Positions 9,690 to 16,829 of a stretch of DNA of 64,000 nucleotides are shown here, piece after piece. Position 1 is the stretch's first letter. Each line of letters starts with the position of its first letter. The notes beneath the pieces are model-generated. The model was given only the letters and a program-made list of their open reading frames with translations. It made no database searches and was not told where the DNA came from. Made by a program: the position numbers and the translations under genes. This DNA is from a virus. The stretch is taken from positions 502-64,501 of the IMG/VR virus record IMGVR_UViG_3300027653_000012, one strand, 5' to 3'.

Positions 9690-10123
9690 TAGACGCCGTC
9701 CGACGGGACGACATAGGAAACTGGCATGGGTCCAGCGTCTAGGGCCCTCTCTCGGTTGAGCGAGCCAGTGGCTGAAGCGAAGCTTCCTGAAAGCGTGTGC
9801 GCGAATCCTGATAGCAGAAAGCTGTGGATAGGGAAGGCCTTGCGAAAGCAAGGCGGGAAAGACCCAACCCAATGGGTGAATCCGATAGCGAATCCGATAG
9901 CGATTTGTCAAAAAGTTAAAAGTCTACTTTTGGCAATCGCAAGGGTTTTTAAAAGGTGCAAGGAGCCTTTCCATTCTTTGGCAATTAGCAACTGCTAGAG
10001 ACTTGGTTGAACCTAGCGGAAAAGACTGAAGTGAAATCTAACTTTAAATCGAAACGGCTGGAATCCCTAAAAAACGAAACTGTCACGCGGTTTCATAAGC
10101 GCAAAAAAGGGATTTCAACCGTC
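9690..10123 (+). ncRNA. Candidate large structured leader/ncRNA ending at the hammerhead 1 cleavage site
   Basis: Dense stems: tagacgc/gcgtcta, actggc/gccagt, gccttgc-GAAA-gcaaggc, gcgatttgtcaaaaagt/acttttggcaatcgc; no convincing ORF. Confidence 0.5.
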
Positions 10124-10160
10124 TTGCGTCTTGGCAAAGCGCAACTGATGAGATTGCCAC
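10047..10160 (+). ncRNA. Type II hammerhead ribozyme 1
   Basis: aatc-GAAA-stem III (cggctggaatccct/agggatttcaaccg)-GTC-stem I (ttgcg/cgcaa)-CTGATGA-gatt; cleavage after 10123. Confidence 0.9.
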
Positions 10161-10188
10161 AAAAAATAAGTAAAAAGGATAAATTAAG

Positions 10189-10575
10189 ATGAAAAACACA
10201 ACTCCATTTGAAACGGTTAAAACCATCAATCGCGAAGGGAAGAAAGTCTTGTCGCGAAAGCGATTTGGCGAAATCCATGGCTTGAAAGGCGCCGAACTGA
10301 AGCGGCGCCATTACGAATATCTGCTTTCAAATCCCTTAAGCGATATGGTCCAGAACGTCACCTGGTCCAGGGTGACCAGGAATCCAAAAACCGGGCACGT
10401 CTCGGCCAGCGGCTATGATGCCGCGGCCATGGCAAAGAAGGCGCCGAAAGCGCCGCGGCGCAGGAAGGCGAAGGTCGTGTCGATCACCGATGCGATGGCC
10501 GTCCTCCAGGCGGCCGCTCAAGAGGGCAATCAACAAGCAATTGCCGCCCTTGAGGCGGTTGTTGCCGGTCAGTAA
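10189..10575 (+). CDS. Basic hypothetical early protein
   Basis: AAGGA SD; flanked by hammerheads 1 and 2. Confidence 0.8.
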   Translation: MKNTTPFETVKTINREGKKVLSRKRFGEIHGLKGAELKRRHYEYLLSNPLSDMVQNVTWSRVTRNPKTGHVSASGYDAAAMAKKAPKAPRRRKAKVVSITDAMAVLQAAAQEGNQQAIAALEAVVAGQ

Positions 10576-10581
10576 TATAAA

Positions 10582-10650
10582 TCGAAACACGCACTGCAAA
10601 CGCGGTGCGTGTCTTGCGTCTTGGCAAGACGCAACTGATGAGAACGCCAT
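10582..10650 (+). ncRNA. Type II hammerhead ribozyme 2
   Basis: tc-GAAA-cacgcactgc/gcggtgcgtg-TC-ttgcgtc/gacgcaa-CTGATGA-ga; cleavage after 10613; stem II only about 2 bp. Confidence 0.85.
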
Positions 10651-10670
10651 AACAAACAAACAAGGATACC

Positions 10671-10853
10671 ATGAGTAACGCAGAAATTGTCAAAAAAATC
10701 GAGGCCGCGAAAGCGGCGGCTGGCTTCAATGACCAAATCAAGGTCATTGAAGCCCTGAACGAGGTGCTGGAGCATCTCCGCCGGGAAGAGCGGGTTGTGG
10801 ACGCGCGGGAAGATTCCATGTCTTATGACCGGAGCTTCCTCGCCGGTCAGTGA
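10671..10853 (+). CDS. Small hypothetical early protein
   Basis: AAGGA SD; between hammerhead 2 and the twister. Confidence 0.75.
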   Translation: MSNAEIVKKIEAAKAAAGFNDQIKVIEALNEVLEHLRREERVVDAREDSMSYDRSFLAGQ

Positions 10854-10889
10854 GTGCAATGTTCCTTGACGTTATGTGACGTCAGGGAA

Positions 10890-10959
10890 CTGGTTAATGC
10901 AACCTGGCTATCTTGGATGGTCAGACGGTTCCAAGTCCGTGTAAATGCAGAGGAACCAG
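10890..10959 (+). ncRNA. Twister ribozyme (type P1)
   Basis: P1 ctggt/accag, T^AA, P2 tgca/tgca, P3 tggctatc/gatggtca, P4 acgg/ccgt with loop ttccaagt, L1 GAGGA. Confidence 0.9.
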
Positions 10960-11062
10960 AGGTTCGCTGTGAACCTCGCTTACGGTCGGATGTTACTCCG
11001 AATCCGGCTGTGAGACAGATGACCGATCGGAGCAAGACGCGTGAGAGGCGCGCTTTTTAGAC

Positions 11063-11344
11063 ATGAAAACACTTACAAGAAAAGAACTGGCGGGAACGTC
11101 ATTCAATATGGGCCTCTCCATCATGCATGGAGAGTCCCGGCAGGTAGTTCGGTTCGGCGCGTGTCAATACGCAACCGACACCTCCGCCACCGTCATCAAG
11201 GACGGTGGAGACATCGTTCTCATCACCGAGAGTAGTCTCGGTGATGGCAGCCGTCCTGAACATCGGGAGGTCCTGGTCCGCCCCGTTTGGGTCGGGGGCT
11301 GGGATGCCGACCCAGAAAAAGAGGAGGACTGGCTACTTCTCTAA
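11063..11344 (+). CDS. Hypothetical early protein
   Basis: ATG after a hairpin cluster; MKT start typical of this operon. Confidence 0.65.
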   Translation: MKTLTRKELAGTSFNMGLSIMHGESRQVVRFGACQYATDTSATVIKDGGDIVLITESSLGDGSRPEHREVLVRPVWVGGWDADPEKEEDWLLL

Positions 11345-11400
11345 CACACGAATGCCGCTCTGCGAGTAACAGAGCGGCTGATTAACCACAAAAAGAAAAA

Positions 11401-11694
11401 ATGAAAACTGGATTCAAGATCAAGAGAATCAGCCATATGGCTGAAGAACCCGTCCGCGTGACGGGGGACGAAGTTGAGATCGTGGACAACCCAACGATCT
11501 CGTTGGCCGACGGCTGCAAGGCTCAGAAACTCCCATTTACATGGGGGTGCCAAGCGGCCGCGTGTTACGCGGTATTCTCCCCTGAGGGGGAGTTTATCGG
11601 ATTCGAGAAGGGCACGGGGGGCCGTGCCCCATATGTAGCCGAAGATGGCTACTTTTCCTGCGAGGAAGAGGATTCCTACCAGGACGAAGAATGA
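11401..11694 (+). CDS. Hypothetical early protein with acidic C-terminus
   Basis: A-rich leader, ATG at 11401. Confidence 0.7.
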   Translation: MKTGFKIKRISHMAEEPVRVTGDEVEIVDNPTISLADGCKAQKLPFTWGCQAAACYAVFSPEGEFIGFEKGTGGRAPYVAEDGYFSCEEEDSYQDEE

Positions 11695-11765
11695 GGCAAT
11701 CTACCGTGATACCGTGAGTGACCGGGAAACCGGCGGCTAAACACCTAAATAGAAAAGAAATAACT

Positions 11766-12143
11766 ATGATCAATATCAAAAACCTCACCCCCCACGCCAT
11801 CCGCGTCTTTGCCGCGGATGGCACGACCGAACTCGTCACCGTGCCGCCCTCGGGTACGGTGGCACGCGCCAGCGTCTCCTACGAGGAGAGCGGCGTCGTC
11901 CCGATCGAGGGCGACGCGGAAGCTCTCCTCAGTCGGGATCCCCTCGCCGGGATTCCCGTCTACGTCTCCGTCATGGGAGACGTAGAGGGACTCCCGGAGC
12001 CGGAAGCAGGGACGGTCTACATCGTCTCCACTCTCGTCCGGCAGGCGTTGCCCCGCCGGACTGACCTGCTCTCCCCCGGGGAGCTAATCCGCAACGAGGC
12101 CGGTCAGCCCATCGGCTGCCGCGGCCTCGTTGCAAACAGCTGA
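11766..12143 (+). CDS. NLTPH-motif protein (candidate cyclic-oligonucleotide ring nuclease)
   Basis: KNLTPHAI ... GLPEP...YIVS.LV ... R.DL..P...IRNEAGQPIGC. Confidence 0.7.
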   Translation: MINIKNLTPHAIRVFAADGTTELVTVPPSGTVARASVSYEESGVVPIEGDAEALLSRDPLAGIPVYVSVMGDVEGLPEPEAGTVYIVSTLVRQALPRRTDLLSPGELIRNEAGQPIGCRGLVANS

Positions 12144-12146
12144 CCT

Positions 12147-12323
12147 ATGAGCGGCCTGATGAAGGTTATGAAGGTTATTTGCGCCTGGTGCGGTCTGTTG
12201 ATCCGCGATGGGCGCGAGCCTGTTTCTCACGGGATCTGCGACCGTTGCAAAGCCCGTGAGCTTGGTCGGCTCAAAGTTACTGAGACCGACCGAGCCTACT
12301 GGGAACCGGTCGAGTCGGACTAA
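12147..12323 (+). CDS. Small Zn-finger protein (58 aa)
   Basis: VICAWCG ... SHGICDRC; below the ORF-track cutoff. Confidence 0.75.
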   Translation: MSGLMKVMKVICAWCGLLIRDGREPVSHGICDRCKARELGRLKVTETDRAYWEPVESD

Positions 12324-12415
12324 AACGGGACGCGAGTCTTGCGAGAGATGGGAGGAGGAGTAAGTTTGCGCCGATGGGATGGCCCCAAAGGCTTAACCAA
12401 CAACAACACACACAC

Positions 12416-12754
12416 ATGAAGACCATGAAAAAAACCATCACAGAATCAGACTTCACGGCAGCGTTCCACAACATGGGGCGCGGCGATCAATTCAGCTATT
12501 CCGGCCTTAAGGCCTTGTTCGGATACCTGGAGGAAATGGAGGAAGGCACAGGCGAGGAGCTGGAACTGGACGTTATCGCGCTCTGCTGCGACTTCGCGGA
12601 ATATGACACGGCGATTGAAGCAGCGTCCGAATATAGCTGGAAGCCAGATGAGGACGAGGACGACGAAGAGAACGAGGCGCAGGCCCTGAAATGGCTGAAC
12701 GACAGAACAACCGTCATCACGTTTGATGGAGGCATTATCATTCAGCAGTTCTGA
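12416..12754 (+). CDS. Acidic early phage protein
   Basis: FSYSGLKALFGYLEE ... ELDVIALCCDFAEY; strongly D/E-rich. Confidence 0.8.
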   Translation: MKTMKKTITESDFTAAFHNMGRGDQFSYSGLKALFGYLEEMEEGTGEELELDVIALCCDFAEYDTAIEAASEYSWKPDEDEDDEENEAQALKWLNDRTTVITFDGGIIIQQF

Positions 12755-12757
12755 AAC

Positions 12758-12820
12758 GTCGAAACCGGCACCCTTGGCCGGTCTGGTGGGTTGGCATCCC
12801 GCCACTGATGAGACTGCCAA
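12758..12820 (+). ncRNA. Type II hammerhead ribozyme 3
   Basis: gtc-GAAA-ccggc/gccgg-TC-tggtggg/cccgcca-CTGATGA-gac; loop I ttggca pairs with 3' tgccaa; cleavage after 12783. Confidence 0.93.
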
Positions 12821-12837
12821 ACAAACAAAAAGCAACC

Positions 12838-13236
12838 ATGAAAGAAGCAAAGAACATGAAAGAAGCAAAGACAAAAGAGGCGATTGAGCGCCACTGCCGT
12901 GGCCTGCTTGCGATCTTCCCGAATGCAAGCGAGACAGACCCAACTAAGCTCTACAAGGAGCTTAAGAGGCTCGAGGATCGGGCCCACAAGCTGGCCGAGG
13001 ACTATTGCAACGGGCACGTTGACTCGGACGGGTGGGAGGCGAAGCGGGACAAGATCCGCGACAAGCTGAACACATTACTTAACCCGGGAGACGTCCCCGT
13101 TTTTCTCAACGGGGATCCTCGCGGATACGCGCTGAAGATCGAGGATGAATGGATGAGGGAGGCTCTTAGCAGCGGCAAAAAACTTCAAACAGATTGGGGC
13201 GGGTATGGTTTGTTGGCTCCGGATCTGACGGAGTAA
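12838..13236 (+). CDS. Hypothetical early phage protein
   Basis: NGDPRGYALKI and DWGGYGLLAP motifs; A/C-rich leader. Confidence 0.8.
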   Translation: MKEAKNMKEAKTKEAIERHCRGLLAIFPNASETDPTKLYKELKRLEDRAHKLAEDYCNGHVDSDGWEAKRDKIRDKLNTLLNPGDVPVFLNGDPRGYALKIEDEWMREALSSGKKLQTDWGGYGLLAPDLTE

Positions 13237-13269
13237 ACCAAAACCAAAACCAAAAACAGAAAGAAAGAA

Positions 13270-13509
13270 ATGAAAATGAAAAACAATACAAAAAACCTTA
13301 GAACAATCCAAGCCCTCGCAGACAACGGAGAGGGTGTCCTATCCCAGACCCAGATCGTCATCGAAAGATCGGGAAACGGCTGGTCTGTCGCTGACGGACC
13401 TGAAATCACCCATGATCACCCGGAAGAGATCCGCGGATGGGGCCGCCTCGACGGCCCTGCTTTCAGACAGAAAAATGGCCTCCTCATACCGGCTCGGGGC
13501 CTCGCATAA
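13270..13509 (+). CDS. Hypothetical early protein
   Basis: A-rich leader. Confidence 0.6.
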   Translation: MKMKNNTKNLRTIQALADNGEGVLSQTQIVIERSGNGWSVADGPEITHDHPEEIRGWGRLDGPAFRQKNGLLIPARGLA

Positions 13510-13883
13510 CCATAGAGCCGCCGGTTTCCCGGCGGCGAATAACCAGAAAAACGCTCAGACCCAGAGCTAAAACGGAGAATAAAAAAATGACCTATACAAA
13601 ACAAGACGCCCTCAACCGGATCAACGGAACCATCGTAAAAAACAGCGTCGTCTACTACGACGACGCAATGGCGGAATACTACGTCGGGCCAGCCTCCGAC
13701 ATCGACGATCTGGTCGAGCTGATGAACTCCGACGACGAGGACATCGCACGGGACGCATACTCCCACTGGTGCGCCGGAACCTCCCATGGAGACGGATACG
13801 AGACCGAGGAGGAAGCAATCGCCGCCGCGGAAGAAAACTAAAAACCACCATAGAGCCGCCGGGAAACCGGCGGCTGAATAACC
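13509..13883 (+). repeat. Intergenic hairpin repeat ACCATAGA-GCCGCCGG-N4-CCGGCGGC-(T)GAATAACC (copies 13509-13544 and 13847-13883)
   Basis: Two near-identical copies; variants at 11354-11387, 11711-11745 and possibly 15438-15470. Confidence 0.85.
13587..13841 (+). CDS. Very acidic small protein (DNA-mimic/anti-defence candidate)
   Basis: 84 aa, D/E-rich, flanked by the hairpin repeats. Confidence 0.75.
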   Translation: MTYTKQDALNRINGTIVKNSVVYYDDAMAEYYVGPASDIDDLVELMNSDDEDIARDAYSHWCAGTSHGDGYETEEEAIAAAEEN

Positions 13884-13905
13884 CTCAAAAAAGAAAGAAA
13901 AGACA

Positions 13906-14112
13906 ATGACAGCCGCACAAGAAATCATAAAATCCACGCGCAGCGATAAGAAACGCCACGAGCTGGCCCTCGAACGCTGCAAATTCCACCTCGACGAACA
14001 AGAGGTTATTGCCGCCCAGCGGGACGATGGCTGGAGCACGACCGCGATATACGAGTTCGCGGATGGGTCCTCACTCCGCGAAAACGGCATGGGCTGGCAC
14101 GCGGAAGGATGA
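13906..14112 (+). CDS. Hypothetical early protein
   Basis: A-rich leader after a hairpin repeat. Confidence 0.65.
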   Translation: MTAAQEIIKSTRSDKKRHELALERCKFHLDEQEVIAAQRDDGWSTTAIYEFADGSSLRENGMGWHAEG

Positions 14113-14290: not shown

Positions 14291-14336
14291 GCACGAGCAA
14301 ACCCGGCACCCTCACACGGTCCGGGTTTTTTCGTGC
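14291..14336 (+). terminator. Intrinsic terminator-like hairpin
   Basis: aaacccgg ... ccgggtttttt inside the longer gcacga/tcgtgc stem. Confidence 0.6.
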
Positions 14337-14882: not shown

Positions 14883-15308
14883 ATGAGAACTGCATTTGAG
14901 TCAGAAGCCAAAGAACAATACGGCATTAGCTGCACAGAGGCCGTGCAACGTGGATTGATTACGCGGGGAATCCGCTGGAGTCACCGGAAGAAGGATTATG
15001 TTGACGATGGGTGGGAGCCCATCAACTGCGGAGGTAAATTCACGACACAGAAAGCGGCACTCGATGCCTACATGGCGCAAGAGAAGAAAGAGCGGGATAA
15101 GGCCATTGCGCGAGCAAACTCCATAACCTACGCGGATCTTCCGGAGTGCTGTAAGTCAGTCATGCCCGAGATAGGGTTCACTGAAGATCACGCACGCAAG
15201 GCAATCCGCCGCCTTCGATCCTGGGTTTGGGATGAAGGGATCTCCGTTCCGCAGGAAACAACGGATAAATACTTCGCCTTCATCAAACAGCGGATGGGGG
15301 TCATTTAA
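14883..15308 (+). CDS. Hypothetical protein
   Basis: 141-aa ORF in the operon direction. Confidence 0.7.
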   Translation: MRTAFESEAKEQYGISCTEAVQRGLITRGIRWSHRKKDYVDDGWEPINCGGKFTTQKAALDAYMAQEKKERDKAIARANSITYADLPECCKSVMPEIGFTEDHARKAIRRLRSWVWDEGISVPQETTDKYFAFIKQRMGVI

Positions 15309-15503
15309 GCGGAGTAGGTCCGACTAAATAACCCGTCGTAAAAAGCAAAGCCCCGTCTCTCCTACTTACGTATCTCACGCGCCGCGTGAGACTTCGGAGA
15401 AGACAGGGCTTACTCACTACCTATCACACTACCTATCACCTATGCGGACTCTCAGTGGTTCGCTGAATAGTAAAAACAAAAGACATCAATCCAACAAGCA
15501 AAA

Positions 15504-16829
15504 ATGAAAACAAAAGTAAAAGCAAAAACCCAACCAACCGAAAAGCAGAAGATGGAACGCGCTCATGAAGCGGTGCAGGAAATTCACCGAACCAATGCTG
15601 AGGCACGCGAGGCCATCGACCGCTACCTGAAGCAGCGCGGTGTCACGATGGACAGCCTCTCCGACCAGTCGGATGGCTTTCGCAAAGACTGCTATGGAGC
15701 CGTCCGCGACGCCCTCCAATCCGGCGATTGGAGCAAGCTGACACACGTTCAGCGATTCGATCCGCTGACATCAGTTCCAGCCCAGGAGCCAGCAGCTAAA
15801 GCAGATCCAGTTGAGGTAGCGGCTACAGTTGTCGAAGAGTCTGAAGCTACGCCTGAAATGTTATCCCAAAACAAGGATAGCAATCCTGCAGCGCTTTTGC
15901 AGCAGGCGATCGAGGAGATGGTCGCTTCTCGGGTCAACAAGCCCGCGATTGACGAGAGTCGATTCAAAGAGCTGTTCGATCATGAGATCCAGAACGGGAT
16001 CGAGTGGGACAAAACCGGGGTGGTGAAGCTCCTGGACGAGCGTGTTGAGGCCGCAAGGAACGGGATCGCCCGCCGCATTGAAATTTTCCTTCCCGATGGC
16101 AAGAAGAGGGAAACGGAGCGGCAGCACAAGGGTTTCGATACGCTCCTGAAGCTCTGCTCGCTGCGAAAGAACGTGATGCTCGTCGGTCCTGCGGCCAGCG
16201 GCAAGACCACCGTTGCGGAGAACGTGGCGAAGGTTCTCGACCTTCCGTTTCACCCTATGAGCATTGGTCTGCAGACGAGCAAGGGTGACCTGATGGGTGT
16301 CAAGTTCGCAGATGGTAGCTATCAGCCTTCCCCGTTGCGGAAAGCATACGAGCACGGCGGGGTGGTTCTTCTCGACGAGTTCGACGCAGGGCACGCCGGG
16401 GTGAATACGATCATTAATGCGGCAACGGCAAACGCGGTGTGCGGCTTCCCTGACGGGACTGTAAAGCGACATAAGGACTTCATCTGCATCGTGGCTATGA
16501 ACACATGGGGGTGGGGCGCGAACGATCAATACGTGGGTCGCAACAAGCTCGACGCGGCAACGCTCGACCGATTCCTGAAACTTCCGTGGGAATACGACGA
16601 GGATCTTGAGCGAGAGATTGCGGGGAACCGAGAGTGGACGGATCGGGTGCAGGCATTGCGCCGCGCCGCCGGTAAGGTTCAGGCGAAGGTTCTCATCTCA
16701 CCCCGTGCCTCGATCAACGGAGCCGATCTTCTCGCCGCTGGCTTCGATTGGGATGAAGTGGAAAATATGACCATCTGGAACGGTGTTGACCGTGCCACCA
16801 AGGAGAAAGTGTTGAGCAATGTCGAGTAA
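15504..16829 (+). CDS. MoxR/CbbQ-type AAA+ ATPase
   Basis: GPAASGKT, LLDEFD, YVGRNKLDAATLDRF, ISPR. Confidence 0.92.
   Translation: MKTKVKAKTQPTEKQKMERAHEAVQEIHRTNAEAREAIDRYLKQRGVTMDSLSDQSDGFRKDCYGAVRDALQSGDWSKLTHVQRFDPLTSVPAQEPAAKADPVEVAATVVEESEATPEMLSQNKDSNPAALLQQAIEEMVASRVNKPAIDESRFKELFDHEIQNGIEWDKTGVVKLLDERVEAARNGIARRIEIFLPDGKKRETERQHKGFDTLLKLCSLRKNVMLVGPAASGKTTVAENVAKVLDLPFHPMSIGLQTSKGDLMGVKFADGSYQPSPLRKAYEHGGVVLLDEFDAGHAGVNTIINAATANAVCGFPDGTVKRHKDFICIVAMNTWGWGANDQYVGRNKLDAATLDRFLKLPWEYDEDLEREIAGNREWTDRVQALRRAAGKVQAKVLISPRASINGADLLAAGFDWDEVENMTIWNGVDRATKEKVLSNVE

What the first reader, a model, noticed from the sequence alone, without database searches (positions are those of the whole stretch)
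10861..11050. Twister ribozyme within a hairpin cluster, paired with a hammerhead around one 60-aa gene
Seen: a full P1-type twister at 10890-10959 with compensatory pseudoknots (AC/GT, and TCC/GGA). It is flanked by further hairpins (gttccttgacgt/acgtcagggaac, gaggttc/gaacctc, cttacggtcggat/atccggctgtgag). Hammerhead 2 and the twister would together excise 10614-10895, containing only ORF 10671-10853. Two ribozyme classes in one operon suggest selection for cleavage itself rather than spread of one repeat.
Basis: partly seen in the sequence, partly recalled or inferred. Interest (0 to 1): 0.72.

Follow-up and report, generated by a model that had tools for sequence, protein, structure and literature searches.

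The report
Twister ribozyme in phage accessory operon
This is a genuine copy of a known self-cutting RNA, the twister ribozyme, lying between two small genes of a soil phage next to three hammerhead ribozymes, where it most likely helps cut one long message into gene-sized pieces; the layout has been described before, so it is a clean but ordinary example.

Summary
Observation confirmed. Window 10891-10958 (+) matches Rfam twister-P1 end to end (60 bits, E 5e-11 for the whole window; gathering score 67.2 not reached). The four core differences from the consensus form two compensatory pairs in the two pseudoknots. In 45 distinct natural twisters that I collected, these two pairs covary with no unpaired case.

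The predicted cut is U10895/A10896. The three flanking hairpins are real. The first one (10861-10890) is the known auxiliary stem P0 of twisters (PMC11662667).

Three type II hammerheads lie on the same strand, cutting after C10123, C10613 and C12783. Hammerhead 2 plus the twister would therefore release 10614-10895 (282 nt), which carries only the orphan 60-aa ORF.

The window is a 64.5-kb soil phage record. The ribozymes sit in a small-gene unit between replication genes and ArdC-N/RadC-like genes.

This scan has also reported the same layout on other phage DNA (e1-5855760, e1-5326550, e1-6050561, e1-3976919).

My survey adds one point. An abutting upstream hairpin is found at 22 of 45 twisters against 92 of 900 controls, which fits a 3'-end cap. 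No RNA data exist, so cleavage is inferred.

The parts
10049..10159 (+). Hammerhead 1, type II, with a roughly 65-nt stem III carrying an insert. Predicted cut after C10123.
   Evidence: My core scan finds CGAAA...GUC...CUGAUGAG with closing stems of 4 and 6 pairs, and 0 hits in shuffles. Loop I UGGCAA is complementary to the tail UUGCCA (read). No Rfam hit at E<=10 in 9990-10200.
10580..10652 (+). Hammerhead 2, type II. Predicted cut after C10613. Starts 5 nt after the stop codon of the 128-aa gene.
   Evidence: RF02276, 30.2 bits, below the gathering score of 37, E 8.2e-05. Core scan: stems of 11 and 9 pairs. Loop I UGGC 10622-10625 pairs with GCCA 10646-10649.
10671..10853 (+). 60-aa ORF with AAGGA 8 nt before the ATG. 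The only + strand ORF inside the 282-nt piece.
   Evidence: ORF list. No Pfam or PHROGs family. Only itself among 5.8 billion clusters. In 1.84 billion representatives the only other hit is an mTERF-repeat protein at E 6.2e-05.
10861..10890 (+). Hairpin A, which is auxiliary stem-loop P0/L0 of the twister. 13 bp, abutting P1 with no linker.
   Evidence: Fold. P0/L0 is defined as the stem-loop immediately upstream of the twister 5' terminus in PMC11662667. It is enriched upstream of natural twisters in my survey.
10891..10958 (+). Type-P1 twister ribozyme with P3. Predicted cut between U10895 and A10896.
   Evidence: RF03160, 60 bits, full length. Pseudoknot covariation in 45 distinct twisters.
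10959..10977 (+). Hairpin B, 7 bp, directly after P1.
   Evidence: Fold. Downstream hairpins are not a general feature of twisters.
10979..11014 (+). Hairpin C, 13 bp with three G-U pairs and a 10-nt loop.
   Evidence: Fold.
11035..11058 (+). Terminator-like hairpin (7 bp with one bulge) followed by five T. Its loop GAGAG(G) could also act as the ribosome-binding site of the next gene.
   Evidence: Consensus scan and fold. Its function is not shown.
11063..11344 (+). Next gene (93 aa), 104 nt after the twister.
   Evidence: ORF list. No family match.
12757..12822 (+). Hammerhead 3, type II. Predicted cut after C12783.
   Evidence: RF02276, 45 bits, above the gathering score of 37. Core scan.

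Best explanation
10891-10958 is a functional type-P1 twister ribozyme with the optional stems P0 and P3. It is transcribed as part of a polycistronic message of small accessory genes in a soil phage.

Once its 3' strand has been made, it should cut itself between U10895 and A10896. Together with three type II hammerheads on the same strand (cuts after C10123, C10613 and C12783), this divides the message into pieces of 490, 282 and 1888 nt, each carrying one gene or a short block of genes.

Every new 3' end would lie 1 to 5 nt after a stable hairpin: hammerhead stem III, or P0 for the twister. Every new 5' end would start with a folded element: hammerhead stem I, or the twister body. The pieces would therefore be capped against exonucleases and could have stabilities and translation rates of their own.

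Shown: the motifs, their completeness, their positions relative to the genes, and the pseudoknot covariation in nature. Inferred: that cleavage happens, that the genes share one transcript, and that the hairpins protect the ends.
For: Identity of the twister:
- Full-length RF03160 match, 60 bits, E 5e-11 over 64 kb.
- Its only core departures from the consensus (A12, U40, U46, A64) are two double changes that keep both pseudoknots.
- Across 45 distinct P1-type twisters, pair 12-46 is GC 24, AU 20, unpaired 0 (one row gapped). Pair 40-64 is UA 24, CG 20, UG 1, unpaired 0. Of all cells, 96.6% are paired against 27-48% when the partners are slid, and 0 of 500 shuffles reach the covariation score.

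Hammerheads: three complete type II cores on the same strand, against 0 in shuffles. One is above the Rfam gathering score and one is at 30.2 bits.

Position:
- The twister starts 36 nt after a stop codon, which is the median for 39 twisters surveyed.
- The hammerheads begin 2 to 5 nt after stop codons and end 15 to 30 nt before start codons.

Terminal hairpins:
- Folds of the ends of the predicted pieces show them.
- An upstream hairpin abuts P1 in 22 of 45 twisters against 92 of 900 control windows.
- The mean MFE of the upstream 36 nt is -9.8 against -5.2 kcal/mol in controls, p 2e-9. Downstream flanks show no enrichment, p 0.90.

Context:
- The window is a virus record, 92% complete.
- Neighbouring genes are SSB, an IstB-like loader, ArdC-N, an AAA ATPase, DUF7192 and RadC. 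This is the phage and anti-restriction setting reported for bacterial ribozymes.

Literature (passages only):
- Tandem hammerheads flank genes such as ardA in prophages and cleave in vitro and in E. coli (PMC3088659).
- Processing of polycistronic transcripts has been proposed for hammerhead and twister (PMC6765202).
- Three type II hammerheads near phage-like genes cleave in Desulfovibrio vulgaris (PMC8782182).
Against: - The score is below Rfam's gathering threshold (60 against 67.2), and the twister does not appear in the default search.
- No experiment or RNA read shows cleavage. No RNA run holds the DNA.
- In the CHiTA assay, twisters with P0 cleaved less on average: fraction cleaved 0.40 against 0.85 without auxiliary stems, and 0.67 for P0 plus P3 (PMC11662667). 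P0 may therefore hinder the ribozyme as much as it helps the message.
- No related phage was found in which conservation of this twister could be checked.
- 20 of the 23 loci that encode relatives of the neighbouring 126-aa gene were scanned and hold no Rfam ribozyme at the gathering score.
- A terminator-like hairpin at 11035-11058 lies between the twister and the next gene. One continuous transcript across it is therefore an assumption.
- The promoter of the unit is not identified. Consensus hits are at the shuffle level, 4 found against 3.9 expected.
Confidence: 0.75

Rival explanations
1. The twister mainly makes the 5' end of a separate structured RNA. Cutting at 10895/10896 and stopping at the terminator-like hairpin would release a fragment of about 163 nt (10896 to about 11058). 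It would consist of the twister body, hairpins B and C and the terminator hairpin, and might act as a small non-coding RNA or as a long protective leader.
For: - The region folds far better than shuffles: z -5.16, 0 of 200 as good.
- A terminator-like stem plus five T sits at 11035-11058.
- The spacer to the next start is 104 nt. The median for 38 other twisters is 46 nt, and only 8 of 38 have 100 nt or more.
- The loop of hairpin C (CUCCGA) is complementary to 11027-11032 (read).
Against: - No relative is available to show that hairpins B and C are conserved.
- Downstream hairpins are not enriched at twisters in general.
- The U-tract is short, and the next gene's start is only 5 nt beyond it, so read-through is needed for genes 11063-12754 unless an unseen promoter exists.
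- The loop complementarity was not tested against chance.
Confidence: 0.1
2. Cleavage is conditional. P0 and hairpin B share words with the ribozyme's own L4 and 3' strand (GUUCC/GGAAC, GGUUC/GAACC). Alternative pairings could hold the twister inactive until a factor or a folding step resolves them.
For: - These 5-mers occur twice each within 10855-10980, against 0.11 to 0.19 expected.
- CHiTA found that P0 lowers cleavage, and its authors suggest inhibitory interactions (PMC11662667).
Against: - The word sharing is weak evidence. Random 30-mers share two or more core 5-mers in 324 of 5000 cases, and random 19-mers in 175 of 5000.
- The MFE fold keeps P0, the twister helices and hairpin B all intact.
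- No ligand or protein partner is indicated.
Confidence: 0.07
3. The motif is an inactive relic or a chance look-alike, and the hairpins are ordinary intergenic structures.
For: - It is below the Rfam gathering score.
- Some computationally predicted ribozymes do not cleave when tested (statement in PMC8782182).
Against: - E 5e-11 for the whole window.
- All helices are intact, and both pseudoknots are kept by double changes that recur in nature.
- The twister sits in the typical slot, 36 nt after a stop codon, with P0.
Confidence: 0.06

Closest known systems
Type-P1 twister ribozyme (Rfam RF03160; class of Roth et al. 2014, known to me only through PMC6765202 and PMC11662667, since the original paper is not held)
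   Same: P1, P2 and P4, the optional P3, both pseudoknots, the U-A cleavage dinucleotide and the conserved L1, L2 and L4 nucleotides all align over the full model.
   Different: The 2-bp pseudoknot uses A12-U46 instead of G-C. No other twister-core match in IMG/VR has T at position 46 (51 matches, all C). Forty-six metagenome and genome matches do, and 22 of the 23 that could be parsed have A12. This change, together with U40-A64, costs score, so the match falls 7 bits below the gathering threshold.
Twister auxiliary stem-loop P0/L0 (PMC11662667, passages)
   Same: A hairpin immediately upstream of the 5' end of P1, without a linker.
   Different: The paper finds P0 in about 10% of its candidates and calls its role unclear. 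In my phage and metagenome set an abutting hairpin occurs in 22 of 45. It sits between the upstream stop codon and P1, which suggests a 3'-end cap for the upstream fragment.
Clusters of hammerhead ribozymes flanking single genes or short gene blocks in prophages (Perreault et al. 2011, PMC3088659, passages)
   Same: Several co-oriented type II hammerheads, each with a loop I to 3'-tail pseudoknot, lie between small genes of a phage unit that also holds an anti-restriction-type gene (ArdC-N here, ardA there).
   Different: Here one of the four slots is filled by a twister. Hammerhead 1 carries a large stem III insert that the Rfam model misses.
Synthetic ribozyme insulators such as RiboJ, a hammerhead plus a hairpin
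   Same: A self-cleaving ribozyme combined with an adjacent hairpin to give defined, protected mRNA ends.
   Different: This one is natural. The hairpin lies on the upstream side of a twister rather than downstream of a hammerhead.

Membership tests
twister-P1 (RF03160) | Helices P1, P2 and P4 in the P1-open topology | tested here: met
   alignment: UGGU/ACCA, UGCA/UGCA and ACG/CGU, all standard pairs. The same helices appear in the MFE fold.
twister-P1 (RF03160) | Two pseudoknots: the 2-bp one (positions 12-13 with 45-46) and the 3-bp one (positions 40-42 with 62-64) | tested here: met
   A12-U46 and C13-G45; U40-A64, C41-G63 and C42-G62. Both variable pairs covary in 45 distinct twisters with no unpaired cell.
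twister-P1 (RF03160) | Conserved loop nucleotides and the N-A cleavage dinucleotide | tested here: met
   UAA, GGU.CCAAG.CCG, UAAA and GAGG are all present. The cleavage dinucleotide is U5-A6, that is 10895/10896.
twister-P1 (RF03160) | Score at or above Rfam's gathering threshold (67.2 bits) | tested here: not met
   60.0 bits. The shortfall coincides with the four covarying pseudoknot positions, which the model scores as unpaired. I could not re-score a changed sequence.
twister-P1 (RF03160) | Site-specific self-cleavage giving 2',3'-cyclic phosphate and 5'-OH ends | not testable with these tools
   No RNA holder is listed for this DNA.
Hammerhead type II (RF02276), hammerhead 2 | Core CUGAUGA, GAAA and a UH cleavage triplet. 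[quoted passage not shown] | tested here: met
   alignment. Core scan with stems of 11 and 9 pairs.
Hammerhead type II (RF02276), hammerhead 2 | Pseudoknot of at least 4 bp between loop I and the tail after stem II (a feature of most type II members according to PMC3088659) | tested here: met
   UGGC 10622-10625 with GCCA 10646-10649, 4 bp. There are 6 bp in hammerheads 1 and 3.
Hammerhead type II (RF02276), hammerhead 2 | Score at or above the gathering threshold (37 bits) | tested here: not met
   30.2 bits. Hammerhead 3 meets it at 45 bits. Hammerhead 1 gives no hit.
Twister P0/L0 auxiliary stem | Stem-loop immediately upstream of the twister's 5' terminus | tested here: met
   A 13-bp hairpin at 10861-10890 ends at the base before P1. 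Definition from PMC11662667.

The most novel reading that the evidence does not exclude
The 282-nt piece released by hammerhead 2 and the twister would carry a 5'-OH and a 2',3'-cyclic phosphate. These are the ends that RtcB-type RNA ligases join (recalled). In the host it could be closed into a circular single-gene mRNA, a natural counterpart of engineered ribozyme-flanked circular RNA systems. That would make ribozyme-flanked phage genes a source of exonuclease-proof circular messages.

My checks give this no positive support but do not exclude it:
- The two ends are not complementary beyond chance: duplex -13.0 kcal/mol, with 98 of 300 shuffles as low.
- Every circular reading frame has stop codons, although 282 is a multiple of 3.
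Probability: 0.04. Interest if true: 0.8.

Novelty: new member of a known kind. Interest (0 to 1): 0.3.

Why it matters
It adds one more well-formed example to a known but still unexplained pattern: unrelated self-cleaving ribozymes filling equivalent gaps between small accessory genes of phages.

Two practical points follow:
1. The standard Rfam thresholds miss this twister and two of the three hammerheads, so ribozyme-punctuated phage operons are under-counted. The A-U form of the 2-bp pseudoknot is a recurrent natural variant that costs score.
2. The twister's upstream stem P0, whose role the literature calls unclear, sits between the upstream stop codon and the cut site in about half of the phage and metagenome twisters surveyed. 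A simple test follows: does P0 stabilise the upstream cleavage product?

The biology of the 60-aa orphan gene remains unknown.

Tried and rejected
Relatives of the locus:
- blastn of 9900-13300 against 50,697 phage records: no match.
- IMG/VR look-ups with the 128-aa and the 441-aa proteins: no relatives.
- The exact twister variant in IMG/VR: 0 matches.
- The 141-aa protein gave 3 loci and the 126-aa protein 23 loci.
- I scanned 20 of those 23 (L100-L119) with Rfam at the gathering score and found 0 matches.
- My own patterns over all 26 loci (L097-L122) found no twister core and one hammerhead-like site, in L104.
- Conservation of this twister in kin could therefore not be tested.

RNA evidence: no RNA holder is listed for this DNA. 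The one run listed is a soil DNA metagenome that may be the source. I did not use read laying, because DNA contigs cannot show RNA ends.

Circular RNA idea: no end complementarity beyond chance and no open circular frame.

Tandem duplication of hammerhead plus gene: the 128-aa and 60-aa proteins show no similarity.

The 60-aa ORF:
- No family match and no homologue among 5.8 billion clusters.
- One weak hit to an mTERF-repeat protein, E 6.2e-05. I take it as helical-repeat noise.

The second intergenic motif (a GC hairpin plus a UGAAUAACC-like tail): no Rfam family in 13480-13910 beyond noise. I did not pursue it.

Rows dropped before counts:
- Matches that my script could not read as P1-type were left out of the pair counts: 7 of 51 viral and 24 of 43 metagenome matches. 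Several are visibly twisters with a closed P1, that is other permutations.
- L080 was dropped before the alignment, because its parse (72 nt upstream, C at position 12) looked wrong. It was the only case against the 12-46 covariation.
- Identical sequences were merged, leaving 45.
- In one search, L052 is misaligned at its 5' end and counts as a gap.
- P2 pairing and at least 3 of 4 P1 pairs were conditions of my parse, and several core letters were fixed by the search pattern. Only positions 12, 40, 46 (free only) and 64 are free evidence.

Papers:
- I saw passages only, through the find mode, of PMC6765202, PMC8782182, PMC3088659 and PMC11662667.
- Roth et al. 2014 (PMC3867598) and Felletti et al. 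2017 (PMC5785228) are not held. I cite them only as described in the review. Felletti et al. may already discuss protective hairpins upstream of ribozymes in the 3' UTR.
- Supplementary files were not opened. Those of PMC11662667 (lists of P0 twisters) and PMC3088659 (operon figures) may bear on the P0 and context claims.
- I do not claim that the capping idea is unpublished. One search found only the CHiTA paper's statement that the role of P0 is unclear. An earlier agent of this scan proposed the same idea (e1-3976919).

Full report
WHAT IS THERE. A default Rfam scan of the window lists only a type II hammerhead at 12757-12822 and a DUF3800-VIII RNA at 15347-15412. With E-value reporting, 10891-10958 (+) matches twister-P1 (RF03160) over all 68 model positions. 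The score is 60.0 bits and E is 7.7e-13 in 1 kb, 5e-11 over the whole window and 1.2e-14 per genome. This is 7 bits below the gathering score of 67.2.

In the printed alignment P1 (UGGU/ACCA), P2 (UGCA/UGCA), P3 (CUGGCU/GGUCAG) and P4 (ACG/CGU) are all standard pairs. The only departures from conserved core letters are A12, U40, U46 and A64. These are the two partners of one pair in each pseudoknot: A12-U46 beside C13-G45, and U40-A64 beside C41-G63 and C42-G62.

ARE THE COMPENSATORY CHANGES MEANINGFUL? I scanned IMG/VR for the twister core with positions 40 and 46 left free. This gave 49 loci and 51 matches. I then scanned metagenome and genome contigs with T fixed at position 46, which gave 42 and 3 loci. 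Position 12 was never constrained.

Of the matches my script could read as P1-type:
- 44 of 44 viral ones with C46 have G12.
- 18 of 19 metagenome ones and 4 of 4 genome ones with U46 have A12.
- The single exception, L080, was a doubtful parse, and I dropped it.

After merging identical sequences, 45 distinct twisters including the window's were aligned, and the pairs were counted on a structure that includes both pseudoknots:
- Pair 12-46: GC 24, AU 20, unpaired 0, one gapped row.
- Pair 40-64: UA 24, CG 20, UG 1, unpaired 0.
- Overall 96.6% of cells are paired, against 27-48% when the partners are slid.
- 0 of 500 shuffles reach the covariation score.

P1 and P2 pairing were conditions of my parse, and several letters were fixed by the pattern, so only these two pairs are free evidence. 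The A-U form of the 2-bp pseudoknot is thus a recurrent natural variant. The covariance model scores these columns as unpaired, which is the likely reason for the sub-threshold score. I could not re-score a changed sequence to prove this.

THE HAIRPINS. The MFE fold of 10854-11062 returns the following elements:
- hairpin A (10861-10890, 13 bp);
- the nested twister helices;
- hairpin B (10959-10977, 7 bp);
- hairpin C (10979-11014, 13 bp);
- a terminator-like stem at 11035-11054, followed by five T.

The z-score is -5.16 and no shuffle of 200 folds as well. The terminator-like site is also found by the consensus scan.

Hairpin A ends at the base before P1. That is the definition of the twister's auxiliary stem P0/L0 in PMC11662667 (passages). 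The same paper reports P0 in about 10% of candidates and lower average cleavage with it (0.40 against 0.85; 0.67 with P0 plus P3), and it calls the role of P0 unclear.

My survey of the 45 twisters gave these results:
- The 36 nt upstream of P1 fold at a mean of -9.8 kcal/mol, against -5.2 for 900 control windows from the same loci (p 2e-9).
- The downstream 36 nt do not differ from controls (-4.6, p 0.90).
- A hairpin whose 3' end lies within 2 nt of P1 occurs in 22 of 45, against 92 of 900 controls.
- The median distance from the previous stop codon to P1 is 36 nt (n 39), exactly as in the window.
- The median distance from P1 to the next long ORF's start is 46 nt (n 38).

P0 therefore typically fills the space between the upstream gene's stop codon and the cut. 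Hairpins B and C are not a general twister feature. The window's 104-nt spacer to ATG 11063 is on the long side: 8 of 38 have 100 nt or more.

THE HAMMERHEADS AND THE 282-NT PIECE. My core scan requires CGAAA, a closed stem III, UH, a closed stem I and CUGANGAG. It finds three sites in the window, all on the + strand, and none in shuffles. H17 falls at C10123, C10613 and C12783.
- Hammerhead 3 passes the Rfam threshold at 45 bits.
- Hammerhead 2 scores 30.2 bits (gathering score 37) and is seen only when a 121-nt stretch is searched.
- Hammerhead 1 has a long insert in stem III and gets no Rfam hit.

All three have loop I sequences (U)UGGCA(A) that are complementary to the tail after stem II (4, 6 and 6 bp). 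This is the pseudoknot described for type II hammerheads in PMC3088659. Their 3' halves form a repeat family with 86% and 73% identity, so the hammerheads may be copies of one element. The twister is unrelated to them.

The predicted pieces are 10124-10613 (490 nt, with the 128-aa gene), 10614-10895 (282 nt, with the 60-aa ORF) and 10896-12783 (1888 nt, with several genes). Folding the ends of the pieces shows a hairpin at each 5' end, and a hairpin 1 to 5 nt from each 3' end.

CONTEXT. The window is nearly all of a 64.5-kb IMG/VR virus record, 92% complete by CheckV. The only sequencing run that holds it is a soil DNA metagenome.

The ribozymes lie in a + strand run of small genes without family matches. 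Two of these genes do match PHROGs of unknown function. The run is preceded by SSB and an IstB-like ATPase and followed by ArdC-N, AAA_5, DUF7192 and RadC genes. A terminator-like hairpin with a T-run at 14301-14332 probably ends the unit.

The 60-aa ORF has a plausible AAGGA ribosome-binding site and no homologue in 5.8 billion clusters. In 1.84 billion representatives its only other hit is a weak match to an mTERF-repeat protein. It is unrelated to the 128-aa neighbour.

No relative of this locus was found. I scanned 20 of the 23 loci that encode relatives of the 126-aa gene, and they carry no ribozyme at Rfam's gathering score. My patterns found one hammerhead-like site with the same UUGGCA loop among all 26 loci, in L104. 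The ribozymes are therefore not tied to particular genes.

HOW IT MOST LIKELY WORKS. The best-supported reading is co-transcriptional self-cleavage that segments a polycistronic accessory-gene message.
- A type II hammerhead leaves stem III at the new 3' end and stem I at the new 5' end.
- A P1-type twister leaves its compact body at the new 5' end but only 4 to 5 nt of P1 at the new 3' end.
- P0 supplies the missing 3' hairpin.

Each product is then capped at both ends and carries 5'-OH and 2',3'-cyclic phosphate termini. This should uncouple the stabilities and translation of neighbouring genes.

The motifs and their placement are shown. Cleavage, co-transcription and protection are inferred. 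Processing of polycistronic messages has been proposed before for hammerhead and twister (PMC6765202). Tandem hammerheads in prophage fragments cleave in vitro and in E. coli (PMC3088659).

Rivals considered:
- The twister makes the 5' end of a separate structured RNA of about 163 nt.
- Cleavage is conditional, through alternative pairings. P0, hairpin B and the ribozyme share GUUCC/GGAAC-type words, but the statistics are weak.
- The motif is an inactive relic.
- The 282-nt piece is circularised. No support was found.

COMPARISON AND VERDICT. By sequence and structure this is a member of the twister-P1 family with P0 and P3. It fails only Rfam's score cut-off, and activity is untested.

The co-occurrence with hammerheads, and the inference that cleavage itself is what matters, are already in print (PMC6765202). 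Other agents of this scan reported the same layout on other phage DNA. One of them (e1-3976919) also proposed the P0 capping idea. I reached it from my own survey, but it is not independent of the literature's definition of P0.

The finding is real, well formed and ordinary: a new member of a known kind. The added value is modest:
- the A-U pseudoknot variant and two hammerheads that standard thresholds miss;
- quantitative support for P0 as a stop-codon-proximal hairpin at phage twisters.

Noticed in passing
window 11354-11389, 11722-11745, 13516-13546, 13854-13884, perhaps 15445-15470: A GC-rich hairpin (GCCGCCGG..CCGGCGGC or similar) followed by a (U)GAAUAACC-like tail and an A-rich leader fills other gene junctions of the same unit. 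No Rfam family matches it in 13480-13910 beyond noise.
   Followed up: partly
window 15347-15412 (-): DUF3800-VIII RNA (RF03075), 64.4 bits, well above its gathering score of 40.2. It lies on the minus strand between two + strand genes, 14883-15308 and the AAA_5 gene 15504-16829.
   Followed up: no
window 14301-14332 (+): Terminator-like hairpin AACCCGG...CCGGGTT followed by six T, just before the ArdC-N gene. It is the probable end of the ribozyme-punctuated transcription unit. The consensus scan missed it because its loop is long.
   Followed up: no
window 10996-11001 and 11027-11032: The loop of hairpin C (CTCCGA) is complementary to TCGGAG 26 nt downstream, which could form a pseudoknot. 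The downstream partner lies in the palindrome CCGATCGG (11023-11030). Not tested against chance.
   Followed up: no
window 10861-10865, 10886-10890, 10927-10932, 10952-10957, 10961-10965, 10971-10975: The base of P0, the twister's L4 and 3' strand, and hairpin B are built from the same words (GUUCC/GGAAC, GGUUC/GAACC). This allows alternative pairings. The enrichment is only weakly beyond chance.
   Followed up: partly
L104:3743-3949 (+): A type II hammerhead-like site with loop I UUGGCA and a stem III insert of about 150 nt, roughly 1 kb upstream of a homologue of the window's 126-aa gene. Rfam missed it at the gathering score.
   Followed up: partly
window 12837-12871: An exact 17-nt tandem duplication (CATGAAAGAAGCAAAGA, twice, 18 nt apart) at the start of the gene after hammerhead 3. 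It gives two in-frame ATG starts.
   Followed up: no
window 11390-11403, 12823-12840, 13240-13272, 13885-13908, 15470-15506: Most genes of this unit have A-rich leaders with no clear Shine-Dalgarno sequence. The 60-aa ORF, which has AAGGA, is an exception.
   Followed up: no
L063, L094, L095 and other twister-bearing loci: My pattern for type I/III hammerhead cores hits 3 of 49 viral, 8 of 42 metagenome and 2 of 3 genome loci that carry a twister, with up to three per locus and none in shuffles. These hits were not checked with a covariance model.
   Followed up: partly
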